Source: Octopus sinensis
Lineage: Eukaryota
Direction: 5' to 3'
Assembly: GCF_006345805.1 (NCBI RefSeq)
Contig: NC_043005.1
Span: forward strand, 17,794,001-17,858,000
DNA length: 64,000 bases
Shown here: one piece after another, positions 65 to 39,513 of the stretch
Position numbering within the stretch: position 1 is the stretch's first letter
Layout: every line of letters begins with the position of its first letter
The notes under the pieces: generated by a model
Told to the model about the DNA's origin: nothing
The model's input: only the letters and a program-made list of their open reading frames with translations
Databases searched by the model: none
Translations under genes and position numbers: made by a program

Positions 65-164
65 NNNNNNNNNNNNNNNNNNNNNNNNNNNNNNNNNNNN
101 NNNNNNNNNNNNNNNNNNNNNNNNNNNNNNNNNNNNNNNNNNNNNNNNNNNNNNNNNNNNNNNN
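65..164. other. Assembly gap (100 N)
   Basis: Run of N. Confidence 0.99.
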
Positions 165-544
165 ACACAACTTAAATTCACCAAGACTATTCATTACCAG
201 TAGCGATAACTATTATGACAAGATAAACGCCTCCAAATGTTTTTTTTTTTTTTTTGCGGGCAAGGAATGGGTGACAAAGACTAAAAGTTAATTGGATATA
301 ATGAGGGCATGACTGTACATCATCAGTTTGTTCGTTTACCGGTACATGATTAATGTGACAAGTATTATCTTGTTGTGTCACGAATTCGCATCAAGACTCT
401 TGCAAACCAAATGCAAAAACAAGCACTACCGCTGACAGAAATATGTGTCTTATACTATAAAGGAATTGACAGGCTAAGCAAGGAGTGTATGTGAAAGAGC
501 TCCTATGAGCTAGCTCAAAGATGAAATAAGACTCTTCACAGATA

Positions 545-3754: not shown

Positions 3755-3910
3755 TTTTCTCTCCTTGTTTCTTTGTGTTCCTTTCTGTAGAAGAGCGTAG
3801 GCTCGAAACGTAAAAGACTTTTTCTATTCCTGAGCGTTATACTAATACATCTGTTTGTTTTGTACACCACCTGTCTTCATCTTTTGTTTTTTTTTTGTAA
3901 ACTCTCCCTA
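3755..3910 (+). mobile_element. Short (TA)n-embedded repeat with minimal hammerhead-like core (family H), copy 1
   Basis: CTTT-CTGTAGAA-GAGC gtag GCTC-GAAA-CGTA-AAAG at 3781-3816; near-identical body recurs at 8684, 27390, 33382 and 39160. Confidence 0.8.
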
Positions 3911-5160: not shown

Positions 5161-5424
5161 AATTGTACTGTAGAAAAATATTTGTTCTTGCTGTGGTCGA
5201 AGTTGATTGGTGGCGTTGGTTCCTCCTGTGGCTGATGTTTCTTGTGTTTCTCTTGCTTCTTGCATTTCTCTTGAGAAAGTGAGTCCTGAAGACCTTAGAA
5301 TAACACCATCTGCATCCACCCTTCGGTGACTGCTGGATAGCACTAAGACAAGACTTGCACTATGTCTAGTCTTGTCTTTTTTTTATCAACTTTATCAAGG
5401 TTTCTTAATATTTTCGTATGAGTA

Positions 5425-7709: not shown

Positions 7710-8308
7710 ATTTTTATACTCAAGGCACAAGGTTCGAAATTTTTGGGAAGAGGGCTAAACGATTAGATCGAATCCAGTACGCAACAGGTACTTAATTTAT
7801 CGACCTCGAAAGAAAGAAAGCAAAGTCGACCTCGGCGGAATTTGAACTCAGAACATAAAGACTGGCGAAATACCTATTTCTTTATTGCCCATAAGGGGCT
7901 AAACATAGAGGGGACAAACAAGGACAGACAAACGGATTAAATCGATTACATCGACCCCAGTGCGTAACTGGTACTTTATCTATCGACCCCGAAAGGATGA
8001 AAGGCAAAGTCGACCTCGGCGGAATTTGAACTCAGAACGTAACGGCAGACGAAATACTTATTTCTTCACTGCCCACAAGGGGCTACACACAGAGGGGACA
8101 AACAGGGACAGACAAACGGATTAGTCGATTACATCGACCCCAGTGCGTAACTGGTACTTTATTTATCGACTCCGAAAAGATGAAAGGCAAAGTCGACCTC
8201 GGCGGAATTTGAACTCAGAACGTAGCGGCAGACGAAATACCTATTTCTTTACTACCCACAAGGGGCTAAACACAGAGAGGGCAAACAAGGACAGACAAAC
8301 GGATTAAG
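7710..8308 (-). mobile_element. Tandem concatemer of SINE A bodies (unit about 180 bp)
   Basis: Repeated ...GAACTCAGAACGTA.CGGCAGACGAAATAC|CTATTTCTTTA.. junctions near 7873, 8057 and 8241. Confidence 0.9.
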
Positions 8309-8683: not shown

Positions 8684-8863
8684 TAGGGAGAGTTTACGAA
8701 AAAAAACAAAAGACGAAGACAGGTGGTGTACAAAACAAACAGATGTATTAGTATAACGCTCAGGAATAGAAAATGTCTTTTACGTTTCGAGCCTACGCTC
8801 TTCTACAAAAAGGGACACAGAAAAAACAAAGAGAGAAAAAATGTGTGTAGTGGCTAACGATCT

Positions 8864-8866
<3 letters not shown>
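8684..8866 (-). mobile_element. Family H element, copy 2
   Basis: Reverse complement of 3755-3910; core at 8777-8812; flanked by (TA)n. Confidence 0.8.
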
Positions 8867-8935
<69 letters not shown>

Positions 8936-12234: not shown

Positions 12235-13030
12235 TGCTTTCAGATTTTGGCACAAGGCCAGCAGTTTCGGTGAAGGGGCTAAGTCAATTACAGCGACTCC
12301 CAGAACTCAAATGGTATCTATTTTTTCGACTCCGGAAGGATGAAAGGCAAAGTTGACCTCGGCAGAATTCGAACCCAGAACACGTAAGGACGGGCGATAT
12401 GCCACTAAGCATTTCGCTCGGCGTGCTAACGTTTCTGTCAGTTCGCCGCCTTATATTGGGTCAATAGAGGAGACAAACAAGAACAGACAAAGGGATTAAG
12501 TCGATTACATCGACCCCAGTTCGTAACTGGTACTTAATTTATCGACCCCGAAAAGATAAAAGGCAAATCGTCCTCGGCGGAATTTGAACTTAGAACGTAA
12601 CGGCAGACGAAATACCTATTTCTTTACTACCCACAAGGGGCTAAACACAGAGAGAACAAACAAGGACAGACAAAGGGATTAAGTCGATTATATCGATCCC
12701 AGTACGTAACTGGTACCTATTTAATCGACCCCGAAAGGATGAATGGCAAAATCGACCTCGGCGGAATTTGAACTCAGAACGTAGCGGCAGACGAAATACC
12801 TATTTCTTTACTACCCACAAGGGGCTAAACACAGAGGAGACAAAGAAGGACAGACAAAGGGATTAAGTCGATTACATCGACCCCAGTGCGTAACTGTGCT
12901 TAATTTATCGACCCATAAAGGATGAAAGGCAAAGTCGACCTCGGTGGAATTTGAAGTCAGAACGTAAGAGCAGACGAAATACCGCTAGCATTTCGCCCGG
13001 CGTGCTAACGTTTCTGCCAACTCACTGCCT
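12235..13030 (-). mobile_element. One SINE A copy plus a three-unit SINE A concatemer
   Basis: Full copy at 12235-12450, then tandem bodies joined at GAAATAC|CTATTTC; TATATT(C/G)GGTCAA(A)TA present three times. Confidence 0.9.
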
Positions 13031-18719: not shown

Positions 18720-19320
18720 TTTCTTTTCTACTCTAGGCACAAGGCCCAAAATTTTGGGGGAGGGTGCTAGTCGATTAGATCGATCCCAGTACGCAACTGG
18801 TACTTAATTTATCGACCTCGAAAGGATGAAAGGCAAAGTCGACCTCGGTGGAATTTGAACTCAGAACGTAAAGACAGACGAAATACTGTTAAGCTAACGT
18901 TTCTTATTTCTTTATTACCCACAATGGGTTAAACATAGAGGGGGCAAACAAGGACAGACAAATGGATTAAGACGATTACATCGACCCCAGTGCGTAAATG
19001 GTACTTAATTTATCGACTCCGAAAGGATGAAAAGCAAAGTCGACCTCGGCGGAATTTGAACTCATAACATAACGGCAGACCAAATACCCATTTCTTTACT
19101 GCCCACATGGGGCTATACACAGTGGGGACAAACAAGGATAGACAAAGCGATTAAGTCGATTATATCGACCCCAGTGCGTAACTGGTACTTATTTAATCGA
19201 CCCCGAAAGAATGAAAGGCAAAGTCGACCTCGGCGGAATTTGAACTCAGAAAGTAACGGCAGACGAAATACCGCTAAGCATTTCGTCCAGCGCGCTAACG
19301 TTTCTGTCAGCTCGCCGCCT
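18720..19320 (-). mobile_element. SINE A concatemer (three bodies)
   Basis: Tail-2 body plus two tail-1 bodies; complete head at 19320. Confidence 0.9.
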
Positions 19321-27389: not shown

Positions 27390-27535
27390 AGTTCAAATTT
27401 CCAGACAACAAAAGACGAAGACAGTTGAAGGAACAACAAGAAGGTATATTAGTTTAACGGTCGGGACGAATTGAAAAGTCTTTGACGTTTCGAGCTTACG
27501 TTCTTCAGCAGAAAAGATTAAGAGGAAAATAGGGA
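27390..27535 (-). mobile_element. Family H element, diverged copy 3
   Basis: Minus strand CTGCTGAAGAACGTAAGCTCGAAACGTCAAAG; CTGTCTTCGTCTTT shared with the other copies. Confidence 0.7.
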
Positions 27536-33381: not shown

Positions 33382-33560
33382 AAGGGAAAGTTTACGAAAA
33401 TAAACAAAAGACGAAGGCAGGTGGTGTACAAACAAATACATGTATTAGTATAGCGCTCAGGACTAGAAAAAGTCTTTTACGTTTCGAGCCTTCGCTCTTC
33501 GACAGAAAGATACACAGAAAAAAACAAGGAGAGAAAAAATGCGTGTAGTAGCTAACGATA
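33382..33560 (-). mobile_element. Family H element, copy 4
   Basis: Minus strand CTTT-CTGTCGAA-GAGC gaag GCTC-GAAA-CGTA-AAAG at 33474-33509. Confidence 0.8.
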
Positions 33561-33569
33561 TATATATAT

Positions 33570-34340
33570 ATATTTAATTTTAATCCAAACGGGAAAACAG
33601 AAAAAACAACAACACGTGGAACAATTACAGTATTATTATTAATAGGCGCTCAGGAAAAGATGGAAGCAGGAAGGTATGACGTTTCGAGCGGAGCTCTTCG
33701 TCGGAAACATAAAGAAGGAAGAGAGAGGAAAGAAAGATCCCAAAGTGGGCAACAAGAGGGAGAAAAAAAAAACGACTGGTGTTTACGAAGTACACATGGT
33801 GAAAGGCGGAAGTTTACGATAACAAGAGCAAAGTAGGTTTTTAAAGCCAAAAGAGTGGAGACAGGGTTGGTAACGCAACAGATGTGTGTGTGTATGTGTG
33901 AGTGTGTGCGTGTGCGTGTGTGTATGTGTGTGTGAGGCGAGATAAAAAAACAAAAAATATATGTATATATTAGTGTGTGCGTCTGTGTGTAGGCGTGTGA
34001 GGTAGGGCGAACAGTAGTAGGCAGCAGACAGTGGTCAGTAGTAAGAAAATGAAGGAAGGAGGAAGGGAGGGAGGGGAAGGGGTGGGGGCGTATGTAACGT
34101 GCCAGTAGTAGTGTGTGTGTGTCCAGTGTCGTAGTTGTATTAATGGCGAGTAGATTTGAAGTGTGTGTAAGAGTAATGTATATATTTAAGCAATGTGTGT
34201 GTGTGAGTGGGTGTATGTATGTGTGCGCGCGTGTGTAACAAAAAAGGGGGGGTTATAAGGAAAAAGGACTCCAGCTGAGGGGAAGATGGAAGAGTGGTCC
34301 CGCGGAGACGGGCGTGGGAGAACCCAACGACAAGCGACGG
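33570..34340 (-). mobile_element. Longer family-H-related element
   Basis: Minus strand CCGACGAA-GAGC tcc GCTC-GAAA-CGTC (33676-33710) followed by TCCTGAGCGCCTA, as in family H; 5' extent uncertain. Confidence 0.55.
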
Positions 34341-35257
34341 CCCCAGGAACGAGCGGGAGACATATATACGACGGGCTTCTTTCAGCTTCCGTCTACCAAA
34401 ACCACTCACAAGGCTTTGGTAGGCCCGAGGCTATAGTAGAAGACACTTGCCCAAGGTGCCACGCAGTGGGACTGAACCCGGAACCATATGGTTGGTAAGC
34501 AAGTTACTTACCACACAGCCACTCCTGCGCCTATTTTAGGCAGTGTGCATCCAAATCCGATTATTCATTGACGTTAACGTGATTTCAGTAAGCTTTGCTT
34601 GCTATCCTTAGCAAGTAAACGAATGTGTAGAGGTTCCCTCGCTCATTTGCATTGTGTCGCTATCTTTATAGCAGTTCATCTGGTTAGATATAGCAAAACC
34701 AAGTTTAATCAATACAGAAGAGATAACGATGGAGTTTTATCGCATTCACTCGATCTGCTAAAAATATCAGTCTGAAATCATATTCTGCTGACTGTAAAAA
34801 TGAGAAGATAGATTAGATAATGTAGTTCTAGATATACTGTCTGAAAACAACAAAAGGGAACGGTTACGGCGAGAATATCTTTCATTACACATCTCCTGAA
34901 TCAGGTCTGACCTCGGACTGAGAGACAATAGCAGTAACAACAACAATAACAACCATATATAAAGAGGAGGGTGAAGGATTTGACTATCACGGAATTACAT
35001 TTGAATTGACTGGGTAGGGTTAGAGTAGATATTACTGGATCAAGATGAGAAGACAACACACTGGTGTTATTGGAAGAGATGAACATAACACTTTAATCAT
35101 GCTATCATGCTATTTTACCTCAAGGCTTTCGTACTAGACACAAAGCTTTGGTCATGTCGAACGCAGTCACAGCAAGAGAATTGCAATAATCGTTTCATTC
35201 CATCTCCATTGATATCCATTATTGAATATAGAATTCCAATAAAATATGAGCAGTGGA

Positions 35258-39161: not shown

Positions 39162-39350
39162 CGTACATACATCGTTACCCACTACACACATTTTTTTTCT
39201 CTCCTTGTTTTTTCTGAGTACCTTTCTGTAGAAGAGCGTAGGCCTGAAACGTAAAAGACTTTTTCTATTCCTGAGTGCTATACTAATACATCTGTTTGTC
39301 TTGTACACCACCTGCCTTCGTCTTTTGTTTATTTTCGTAAACTTTCCCTT
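39160..39350 (+). mobile_element. Family H element, copy 5
   Basis: CTTTCTGTAGAAGAGCGTAGGCCTGAAACGTAAAAG at 39222-39257; (TA)n on both sides. Confidence 0.8.
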
Positions 39351-39513
39351 TATATATATATAAAGCCCACTAGAATGGGAGCAAGCGCTAATCCGAAATC
39401 CGAATGATATGATATGATATATATGTAAAAAATGTAATATATAAATAAATATCTACAAATATGAACCATCCGATCTGATTACCTCAATTTTTCTAATATA
39501 TATATATATTATA

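What the first reader, a model, noticed from the sequence alone, without database searches (positions are those of the whole stretch)
3755..3910. Family H: five-copy 160-190 bp element built around a minimal, non-canonical hammerhead
Copies at 3755+, 8684-, 27390-, 33382- and 39160+ (relative at 33676-) share CTTT-CTG(T/C)NGAA-GAGC-loop-GCTC-GAAA-CGT(A/C)-AAAG. This gives a 4-bp stem I, a 4-bp stem II and a loopless palindromic ACGT stem III that could only form between two copies. The core has U or C where A6 is expected, plus one extra A. Loop II varies (gtag, gaag, tcc) while the stem is mostly kept. There is no Pol III box, poly-A tail or TIR, and most copies sit in (TA)n. Inference: a high-copy Penelope-derived short element with a variant ribozyme core, or a catalytically dead fold kept for RT recognition.
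Basis: partly seen in the sequence, partly recalled or inferred. Interest (0 to 1): 0.72.

Follow-up and report, generated by a model that had tools for sequence, protein, structure and literature searches.

The report
Penelope retrotransposon end, altered hammerhead core
These repeats are the cut-off tail ends of an abundant protein-coding Penelope-type jumping gene; its built-in hammerhead RNA motif carries a fixed core change, predicted to weaken self-cutting, in more than 16,000 copies, while the rest of the motif stays conserved.

Summary
The five copies are real but are not a short element of their own. They are 5'-truncated 3' ends (pseudo-LTR) of a ~4.1-kb Penelope-like retrotransposon with RT, CX4CxxC linker and GIY-YIG endonuclease: 16 of 20 RT-anchored loci end in this sequence, and a complete copy has it at both ends. 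The extra A and palindromic ACGT are published features of Penelope minimal hammerheads. The unusual part is A6U: 16,261 exact copies, none of 156 flank-selected copies has A6, and five subfamilies differ in the motif only at N7, H17 and one CpG base (3/36 columns; flanks 45/99). The 33676 relative is a sister family with canonical (4,230) and U4C (6,761) cores. No sampled copy begins at the predicted cut site (0 of 120 rows). Best reading: a selected but weakened, probably protein-assisted hammerhead whose cleavage is not needed for insertion; a non-cutting structural fold is a close rival. Cleavage is untested. I found no A6U report, but two key papers were unreadable. The scan noted a similar altered-core Penelope family in another genome (e1-10280822).

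The parts
3755..3909 (+). 5'-truncated 3' end (pLTR) of the Penelope-like element, U6/A7 subfamily
3781..3816 (+). Minimal type I hammerhead motif: stem I 3781-3784/3813-3816, core C3 3785, U at position 6 = 3788, N7 3789, G8 3790, extra A 3792, stem II 3793-3796/3801-3804, G12 3805, palindrome 3808-3811, predicted cut after 3812
   Evidence: sequence; numbering after PMC4209133 and PMC7151607
3619..3755 (.). (TA)n microsatellite in which the copy sits
8684..8868 (-). Copy of the same subfamily, with a private C3U change
27390..27534 (-). Copy of an older subfamily (majority core U6, C7, cut-site C); its C6 and stem II mismatch are private
33382..33560 (-). Copy with U6, C7 core; private loop change
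39165..39351 (+). Copy with U6, A7 core and a broken stem II 3' strand
33576..34360 (-). 3' end of a sister Penelope-like family (U4C core, 3-nt loop, stem I mismatch); 5' limit approximate; abuts the 33382 copy across a short (TA)n

Best explanation
Family H is the 3' end and pseudo-LTR of a ~4.1-kb endonuclease-positive Penelope-like retrotransposon that sits in (TA)n, and its hammerhead motif is kept by selection with a fixed A6U change that likely makes it a weak, conditional (probably dimer- and protein-assisted) ribozyme whose cleavage is likely not needed for insertion. Shown: layout pLTR - ATATAT - ~660-nt leader - ORF (DKG motif, RT, CX4CxxC linker, GIY-YIG) - pyrimidine-rich 3' UTR - pLTR; a fixed 3' end ~97 nt past the predicted cut site; variable 5' truncation; U6 in old and young subfamilies. 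Inferred: read-through RNA from a tandem or partial-tandem copy is bound by the element's protein, the endonuclease nicks (TA)n, reverse transcription starts inside the RNA at the pLTR/leader junction (as shown for the Anolis element PAc), perhaps helped by the junction's ATATAT pairing with the target, and usually stops early, leaving 150-200-bp ends like these five. Inferred: the template is uncut at this hammerhead (or re-ligated), so lineages that slow cleavage are not penalised, while the fold and the catalytic G8/G12 are still selected for occasional processing of long tandem transcripts.
For: PLE identity: 16 of 20 RT-anchored loci end in H in direct orientation at 80-97%, one more weakly; full copy L182 has H at both ends 4.12 kb apart; 22 of 30 leader-anchored loci have H directly upstream by blastn; RVT_1 33.4 bits over the 29.6 cut-off; Atlas hit 0.97 to an HTH_animal/RVT_1/GIY-YIG cluster; motifs read. 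U6 fixed: 16,261 exact matches against 522 for C6/G6; 100 of 100 listed flank-anchored matches (of 13,262) have T at position 6, read by eye; 156 copies chosen by flank: T150 C3 G2 gap1, A0. Selection: five flank-defined subfamilies differ at 3 of 36 motif columns (N7, H17, one CpG loop base) against 45 of 99 flank columns, Fisher p=3.5e-5; N7 takes all four bases and H17 is A, C or U (G in 1 of 156), which is the freedom a working hammerhead allows (NUH rule in PMC11014351). Outer stem I pair is C-G in the U6 family (25/30) and G-C or G-U in the sister family (28/30; G-C 29/30 in its U4C branch). Weakening: mutants in the CUGA turn had low activity (PMC9901934); natural A6C is slow in Mg2+ but active (PMC3088659, PMC7151607). 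Cleavage dispensable: 0 of 120 rows (some duplicates) have a 5' end within 3 nt of the cut, 104 span it; PAc hammerhead cleaves only with protein and dead mutants still insert in vitro (PMC11167929).
Against: No cleavage data at all for this sequence; I found no measurement of A6U itself. The conservation pattern also fits a non-cutting fold: N7 and H17 are loosely paired in a rod-like monomer too, and RNAfold lets U4-G5-U6 pair with the A15.1-C-G strand in one subfamily. The hammerhead dimer was not the predicted co-fold minimum in any of 8 examples, and stem I had low probability in most longer contexts. Loop II (GUAG) is as conserved as the core, and blocks in the 3' flank are conserved too, so some constraint may be promoter or protein binding rather than catalysis. 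Only five subfamilies, clustered at one threshold, and related columns are not independent, so the p value is generous. Within the U6 family there is no stem covariation. The youngest sister subfamily has both U4C and a stem I mismatch in 30 of 30 loci, which looks like loss of constraint. No intact ORF was found (longest open stretch with a PLE motif 478 aa), so present activity is not shown.
Confidence: 0.55

Rival explanations
1. Same retrotransposon, but the motif no longer cuts: it is a hammerhead-derived structural RNA (or overlapping promoter or splice signal) kept because the RT-endonuclease or the transcription machinery needs it.
For: Non-canonical cores outnumber canonical ones about 5 to 1 among exact matches with this stem II (16,261 + 6,761 + 522 against 4,230); two independent core changes spread; no copy starts at the cut; U6 allows an inactive rod pairing; hammerhead-less Naiads proliferate well (PMC8557442); PAc dead mutants still insert.
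Against: Change is confined to N7 and to H17 within A/C/U, with G5, G8, A9, G12, A13, A14 and the palindrome untouched across subfamilies only 64-68% alike in the 3' flank; a natural A6C ribozyme keeps activity.
Confidence: 0.33
2. U6 is a fully working core variant: something in this RNA (the extra A, the GUAG loop, a distal contact), a metal such as Mn2+, or the PLE protein makes up for the lost A6.
For: U6 is retained from an old subfamily (copies 86-91% alike) to young ones with no subfamily returning to A, which suggests U6 itself is selected; A6C is nearly normal in Mn2+ (PMC7151607).
Against: No double mutant rescued the CUGA region apart from the C3-G8 swap in a full pairwise scan (PMC9901934); PLE minimal hammerheads are slow even with canonical cores (PMC4209133).
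Confidence: 0.1
3. A self-standing non-autonomous short element (SINE- or retrozyme-like) of 160-190 bp.
For: Most copies are short (depth on H far above the ORF, a rough measure); some loci hold leader plus H without an ORF.
Against: 5' ends are ragged and run continuously into the 3' UTR and ORF; no fixed 5' end, no A/B box, no head-to-tail arrays of a 150-300-bp unit in the loci examined.
Confidence: 0.02

Closest known systems
Endonuclease-positive Penelope-like elements of Neptune/Nematis type (Craig et al. 2021, PMC8557442; passages read)
   Same: Single ORF with DKG motif, RT, CX2-5CxxC linker, C-terminal GIY-YIG; partial tandems forming pLTRs; inverted 5'-truncated arms; heavy 5' truncation; (TA)n targeting; hammerhead in the pLTR.
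   Different: Hammerhead core is CUGUNGA, which their CUGANGA descriptor would miss; Neptune versus Nematis not resolved here (no reference tree).
Minimal type I hammerheads of metazoan PLEs (Cervera and de la Pena 2014, PMC4209133; text parts 1-2 of 4 read, supplements not seen)
   Same: 4-bp stem I, no stem III beyond the palindrome, extra nucleotide between 9 and 10.1, G10.1-C11.1 pair, thousands of dispersed single copies.
   Different: Position 6 is U; stem II is 4 bp rather than 7-8 bp as in their Schistosoma families; the core variant they describe in the parts read is U3-A8, not A6U or U4C.
PAc (Poseidon_Ac) of Anolis (Frangieh et al. 2024, PMC11167929; parts 1-2 of 4 read)
   Same: RT start internal to the RNA downstream of the hammerhead, AT-rich target, genomic copies spanning the cut site.
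   Different: PAc lacks the CxxC linker (Poseidon clade) and its ORF starts in stem II; here the ATG lies about 760 nt past the cut site, so the motif is not constrained by coding.
Bcep176 A6C hammerhead (PMC3088659 passages; PMC7151607 parts 1-2 of 4)
   Same: Natural pyrimidine at core position 6.
   Different: Single phage ribozyme with C6, not U6; here the change is fixed in over 16,000 copies of a retrotransposon and in a minimal, dimer-type motif.
Metazoan non-LTR retrozymes (PMC7229834 passages; bioRxiv 10.64898/2026.07.22.740005 part 1 of 5)
   Same: Type I hammerhead in a repeat linked to PLEs.
   Different: Those are non-coding tandem units of 150-400 bp; this is the end of a coding element.

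Membership tests
EN+ Penelope-like element | One ORF with RT followed by a C-terminal GIY-YIG endonuclease on the same strand as the 3' end | tested here: met
   RVT_1 above cut-off; YGRYIDD and ..CISCSLCHFLYIGQTGRR read in order upstream of H; Atlas 0.97. Pfam GIY-YIG itself did not score on this family's pieces; all copies seen are broken.
EN+ Penelope-like element | Pseudo-LTRs from partial tandems, direct or inverted | tested here: met
   L182 H at both ends; 22 of 30 leader-anchored loci; inverted arms in several loci.
EN+ Penelope-like element | DKG motif before the RT core and CCHH in the endonuclease | tested here: met
   IKPADKGG in L097; two Cys inside the GIY-YIG core and two His after it in L092, read by eye.
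Neptune/Nematis clades | CX2-5CxxC linker between RT and endonuclease | tested here: met
   CSRPRCRTC in L092; definition from PMC8557442.
Neptune (as against Nematis) | Placement in an RT phylogeny with reference elements | not tested
   No named reference sequences were at hand.
PLE minimal type I hammerhead | Stems I and II, extra nucleotide 9.1, G10.1-C11.1, palindromic 15.1-16.1 | tested here: met
   stem I pairs 1-4 formed in 26-29 of 30; outer pair covaries with the sister family.
Canonical hammerhead core | C3 U4 G5 A6 N7 G8 A9 ... G12 A13 A14 A15.1, U16.1, H17 | tested here: not met
   All positions met except A6: U in 150 of 156, A in 0.
Hammerhead ribozyme (catalytic) | Site-specific self-cleavage after H17 | not testable with these tools
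   Only assembled contigs of guessed-RNA runs were available; genomic 5' ends show no footprint of cleavage.
SINE / non-LTR retrozyme | Fixed-length non-coding unit with own 5' end (Pol III boxes, or tandem hammerhead-bounded monomers) | tested here: not met
   Ragged 5' ends continuous with the ORF; no A/B box.

The most novel reading that the evidence does not exclude
In this Penelope clade the hammerhead has been decoupled from free self-cleavage: two independent changes in the CUGA turn (A6U, U4C) each spread to thousands of copies while the rest of the motif stayed under selection, so the Penelope hammerhead works as a protein-gated or purely structural RNA element, and U6 hammerheads form a large natural class that standard CUGANGA searches miss.
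Probability: 0.4. Interest if true: 0.68.

Novelty: new variant of a known kind. Interest (0 to 1): 0.43.

Why it matters
Why Penelope-like elements carry hammerheads is an open question (PMC8557442; PMC7761336). This genome offers a natural experiment: one clade with canonical (A6), A6U and U4C cores on the same stem II, each with thousands of copies, and the non-canonical ones the more abundant. Three short natural RNAs assayed side by side, with and without PLE protein, would show whether selection keeps cleavage or only the fold. It also means descriptor searches that require CUGANGA would miss about four fifths of these motifs here. The element itself is an ordinary member of a known retrotransposon group.

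Tried and rejected
1) First PLE ORF found next to an H copy (L031) belongs to another family: none of 30 loci anchored on its endonuclease had H downstream in direct orientation (the middle's output was cut, one search covers all 30 by motif scan); rejected as the parent. 2) Register shift (an inserted U with A6 intact) rejected: it would break C3-G8, and the A varies among subfamilies as N7 does. 3) Rfam: no hammerhead match in the rows shown. 4) Expression and cleavage in vivo: no RNA holder listed on record; guessed-RNA and unknown-kind contigs of four organism labels hold the family and vary at N7 and H17, but contigs cannot show ends or strand; no inference drawn. 5) Thermodynamic folding did not favour the dimer; uninformative for catalysis. 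6) Literature on A6U: searches (hammerhead + A6C/A6U/A6G/core variant) found no natural A6U hammerhead; searches found no description of this family. Lunse et al. 2017 (150,000 PLE-linked variants, figure recalled), Arkhipova et al. 2017 and a structural review were not held, and figure data and supplements of PMC4209133 and PMC9901934 were not seen; any of these may already hold A6U or U4C. 7) Coding overlap as the cause of conservation rejected: ATG is ~660 nt after the pLTR end. 8) No intact ORF in any fetched locus. 9) No tree, structure prediction or large protein search was run; they would not change the verdict.

Full report
Observation. The copy at 3755-3909 reads stem I CTTT, core CTG-T-A-GA, an extra A, stem II GAGC-gtag-GCTC, GAAA, palindrome ACGT, then A and AAAG. 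Only this copy and 33382 match the quoted motif in full; 8684 has C3U, 39160 and 27390 have stem II mismatches. The window belongs to a 2.72-Gb genome, G000. That it is an octopus-like cephalopod is my recall from other repeats and from earlier scan notes, not a result of my calls.

What it is. The best 40 genomic matches to the 3755 copy are 94-100% alike. The 30 fetched share one 3' end, mostly followed by TA repeats, and have ragged 5' ends. Walking upstream led through a pyrimidine-rich 3' UTR into a reading frame on the same strand with a DKG motif, RT (YGRYIDD), a CSRPRCRTC linker, a GIY-YIG core and a PLE-type C terminus. One piece passes the Pfam RVT_1 cut-off (33.4 against 29.6 bits); another's nearest Atlas cluster, at 0.97, carries HTH_animal (90%), RVT_1 (41%) and GIY-YIG (17%). 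Pfam's GIY-YIG model did not score on this family's pieces. Of 20 loci picked by the RT N-terminal region, 16 end in H in direct orientation at 80-97%, one has a weak partial match and three lack it. Of 30 loci picked by the 5' leader, 22 have H directly upstream by blastn, joined by ATATAT. L182 is a complete copy: H 1091-1246, leader, ATG near 1914, ORF to about 4680, H 5211-5359; unit about 4.12 kb. H is therefore the 3' end and the pseudo-LTR of an endonuclease-positive Penelope-like element of Neptune/Nematis type (linker definition: PMC8557442). The window holds no ORF of the family: its copies are truncated ends. Of 81 sampled 3' ends, 48 are followed by five or more TA units (2.9% at random positions of the fetched loci); up to three units may come from the element's own junction. 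No fetched locus has an intact ORF. A first PLE found beside an H copy proved to be another family with its own 3' UTR.

The hammerhead. Cervera and de la Pena (PMC4209133, parts 1-2 of 4 read) describe exactly this minimal type I form in PLE pLTRs, including the nucleotide between 9 and 10.1 and the palindrome, with low activity as dimers. The extra A and the loopless stem III are thus known. Position 6 is not: exact genome counts with this stem II are 16,261 for U6, 4,230 for A6 and 522 for C6 or G6, controls 0. The A6 matches listed are mostly a sister family with a 3-nt loop (2 of the 100 listed have the GTAG loop). With a pattern that fixes only the flanks (13,262 matches), all 100 listed have T at position 6 (read by eye). 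In a set chosen by the 3' flank (169 copies found, 13 dropped as truncated in the motif, 72 motif-selected central hits left out), position 6 is T150, C3, G2, gap 1, A0; N7 is A83, C33, T31, G9; H17 is A109, C24, T21, G1. The 27390 copy belongs to an older subfamily whose majority is also U6, so its C is private. Five subfamilies defined on the 3' flank (119 of the 156 copies fall in clusters of three or more) differ at 3 of 36 motif columns (N7, H17, one loop G at a decaying CpG) and at 45 of 99 flank columns (Fisher p=3.5e-5; columns and subfamilies are not independent). So the motif, U6 included, has been under selection in the master copies, and the free positions are those a hammerhead leaves free. 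The outer stem I pair switches from C-G in the U6 family to G-C/G-U in the sister family. There is no covariation inside the U6 family, and loop II is as conserved as the core.

The relative at 33676 is a second case. It is a young subfamily (97-99% alike) of the sister family, with U4C and a U-U mismatch in stem I in 30 of 30 loci and 6,761 exact U4C matches. L367 shows this family flanking an ORF 49-71% identical in protein to the H family.

How it most likely works. Shown: copies have a fixed 3' end about 97 nt beyond the predicted cut, and among 120 rows not anchored upstream of the cut (a few are duplicates) none starts within 3 nt of it and 104 span it. Inferred: the template RNA is uncut at this hammerhead or re-ligated; reverse transcription starts inside read-through RNA at the pLTR/leader junction after a nick in (TA)n, as shown in vitro for PAc, where the hammerhead cleaves only with protein and dead mutants still insert (PMC11167929, parts 1-2 of 4). 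A6U should slow cleavage: CUGA-turn mutants had low activity in a full scan (PMC9901934, passages), and natural A6C is slow in Mg2+ yet active, more so in Mn2+ (PMC3088659 passages, PMC7151607 parts 1-2). I found no measurement of A6U. My best reading (0.55) is a weakened, conditional ribozyme that is still selected. The main rival (0.33) is a non-cutting fold kept for protein binding, promoter or splicing: folding lets U4-G5-U6 pair with the A15.1-C-G strand in one subfamily, the dimer was never the predicted minimum, and stem I was weak in most longer contexts. A fully compensated variant gets 0.10. Sequencing runs offered only contigs of guessed kind, so nothing is claimed on expression or cleavage.

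Novelty. The element is an ordinary member of a known group, and dispersed PLE ends with minimal hammerheads are published. A selected, high-copy A6U core did not turn up in my searches (family searches), but Lunse 2017 and Arkhipova 2017 could not be read and supplements were not seen. An unchecked scan note reports a like case in another genome (e1-10280822); I met it after forming my reading and did not test it; my title and plain sentence are close to its wording. Verdict: new variant of a known kind, interest 0.43; its value is as a ready three-way test of what Penelope hammerheads do.

Noticed in passing
window 33576-34360 (-); L367 1422-7696 (+): Sister PLE family with three-way core variation; its young branch has U4C plus a stem I mismatch fixed, and a 3' UTR of about 3 kb in L367.
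   Followed up: partly
L152-L181, leader positions +152..174 and +272..293: Copies that run past the usual 3' end stop at two further zones (16 and 9 of 30; the first coincides with my query end, three of the second are one region), both at look-alikes of the main end motif; six of the second kind continue into a 5'-truncated copy. Possible extra RT start or template-jump sites, i.e. a long 'tail'.
   Followed up: partly
window 3756-3790 (+): In the A7 subfamily the pyrimidine tract plus U6-A7-G8 reads like a 3' splice acceptor; in D. virilis Penelope an intron ends at helix I (PMC4209133). Untested; other subfamilies lack this AG.
   Followed up: no
window 3829-3836 (+) and equivalents: A conserved block about 15 nt after stem I is complementary to the 3' strand of stem II in both families and could form a competing fold (appeared in some RNAfold minima).
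   Followed up: partly
L031 5250-7170 (+); L032-L061: A second, older PLE family (83-92% among copies) with RT, Cys linker, GIY-YIG and a ~800-bp 3' UTR in which my motif scan found no hammerhead of this type; H copies lie inverted directly against its truncated 5' end in L031 and L036.
   Followed up: partly
L294, L299: Two copies of the sister family share G6 and G17 (a non-cleavable triplet by the NUH rule); may mark a small subfamily with two disabling changes.
   Followed up: no
window 7756-8307, 12466-12983, 18906-19272; 717, 5436, 12409, 19278, 20918, 30517, 53395: 183-bp tandem units and a dispersed SINE-like family, unrelated to H.
   Followed up: no
L333-L362: Strong CpG decay (CG to CA/TG) in old copies, including G8 and the ACGT palindrome, showing post-insertion methylation-type decay of the motif.
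   Followed up: partly
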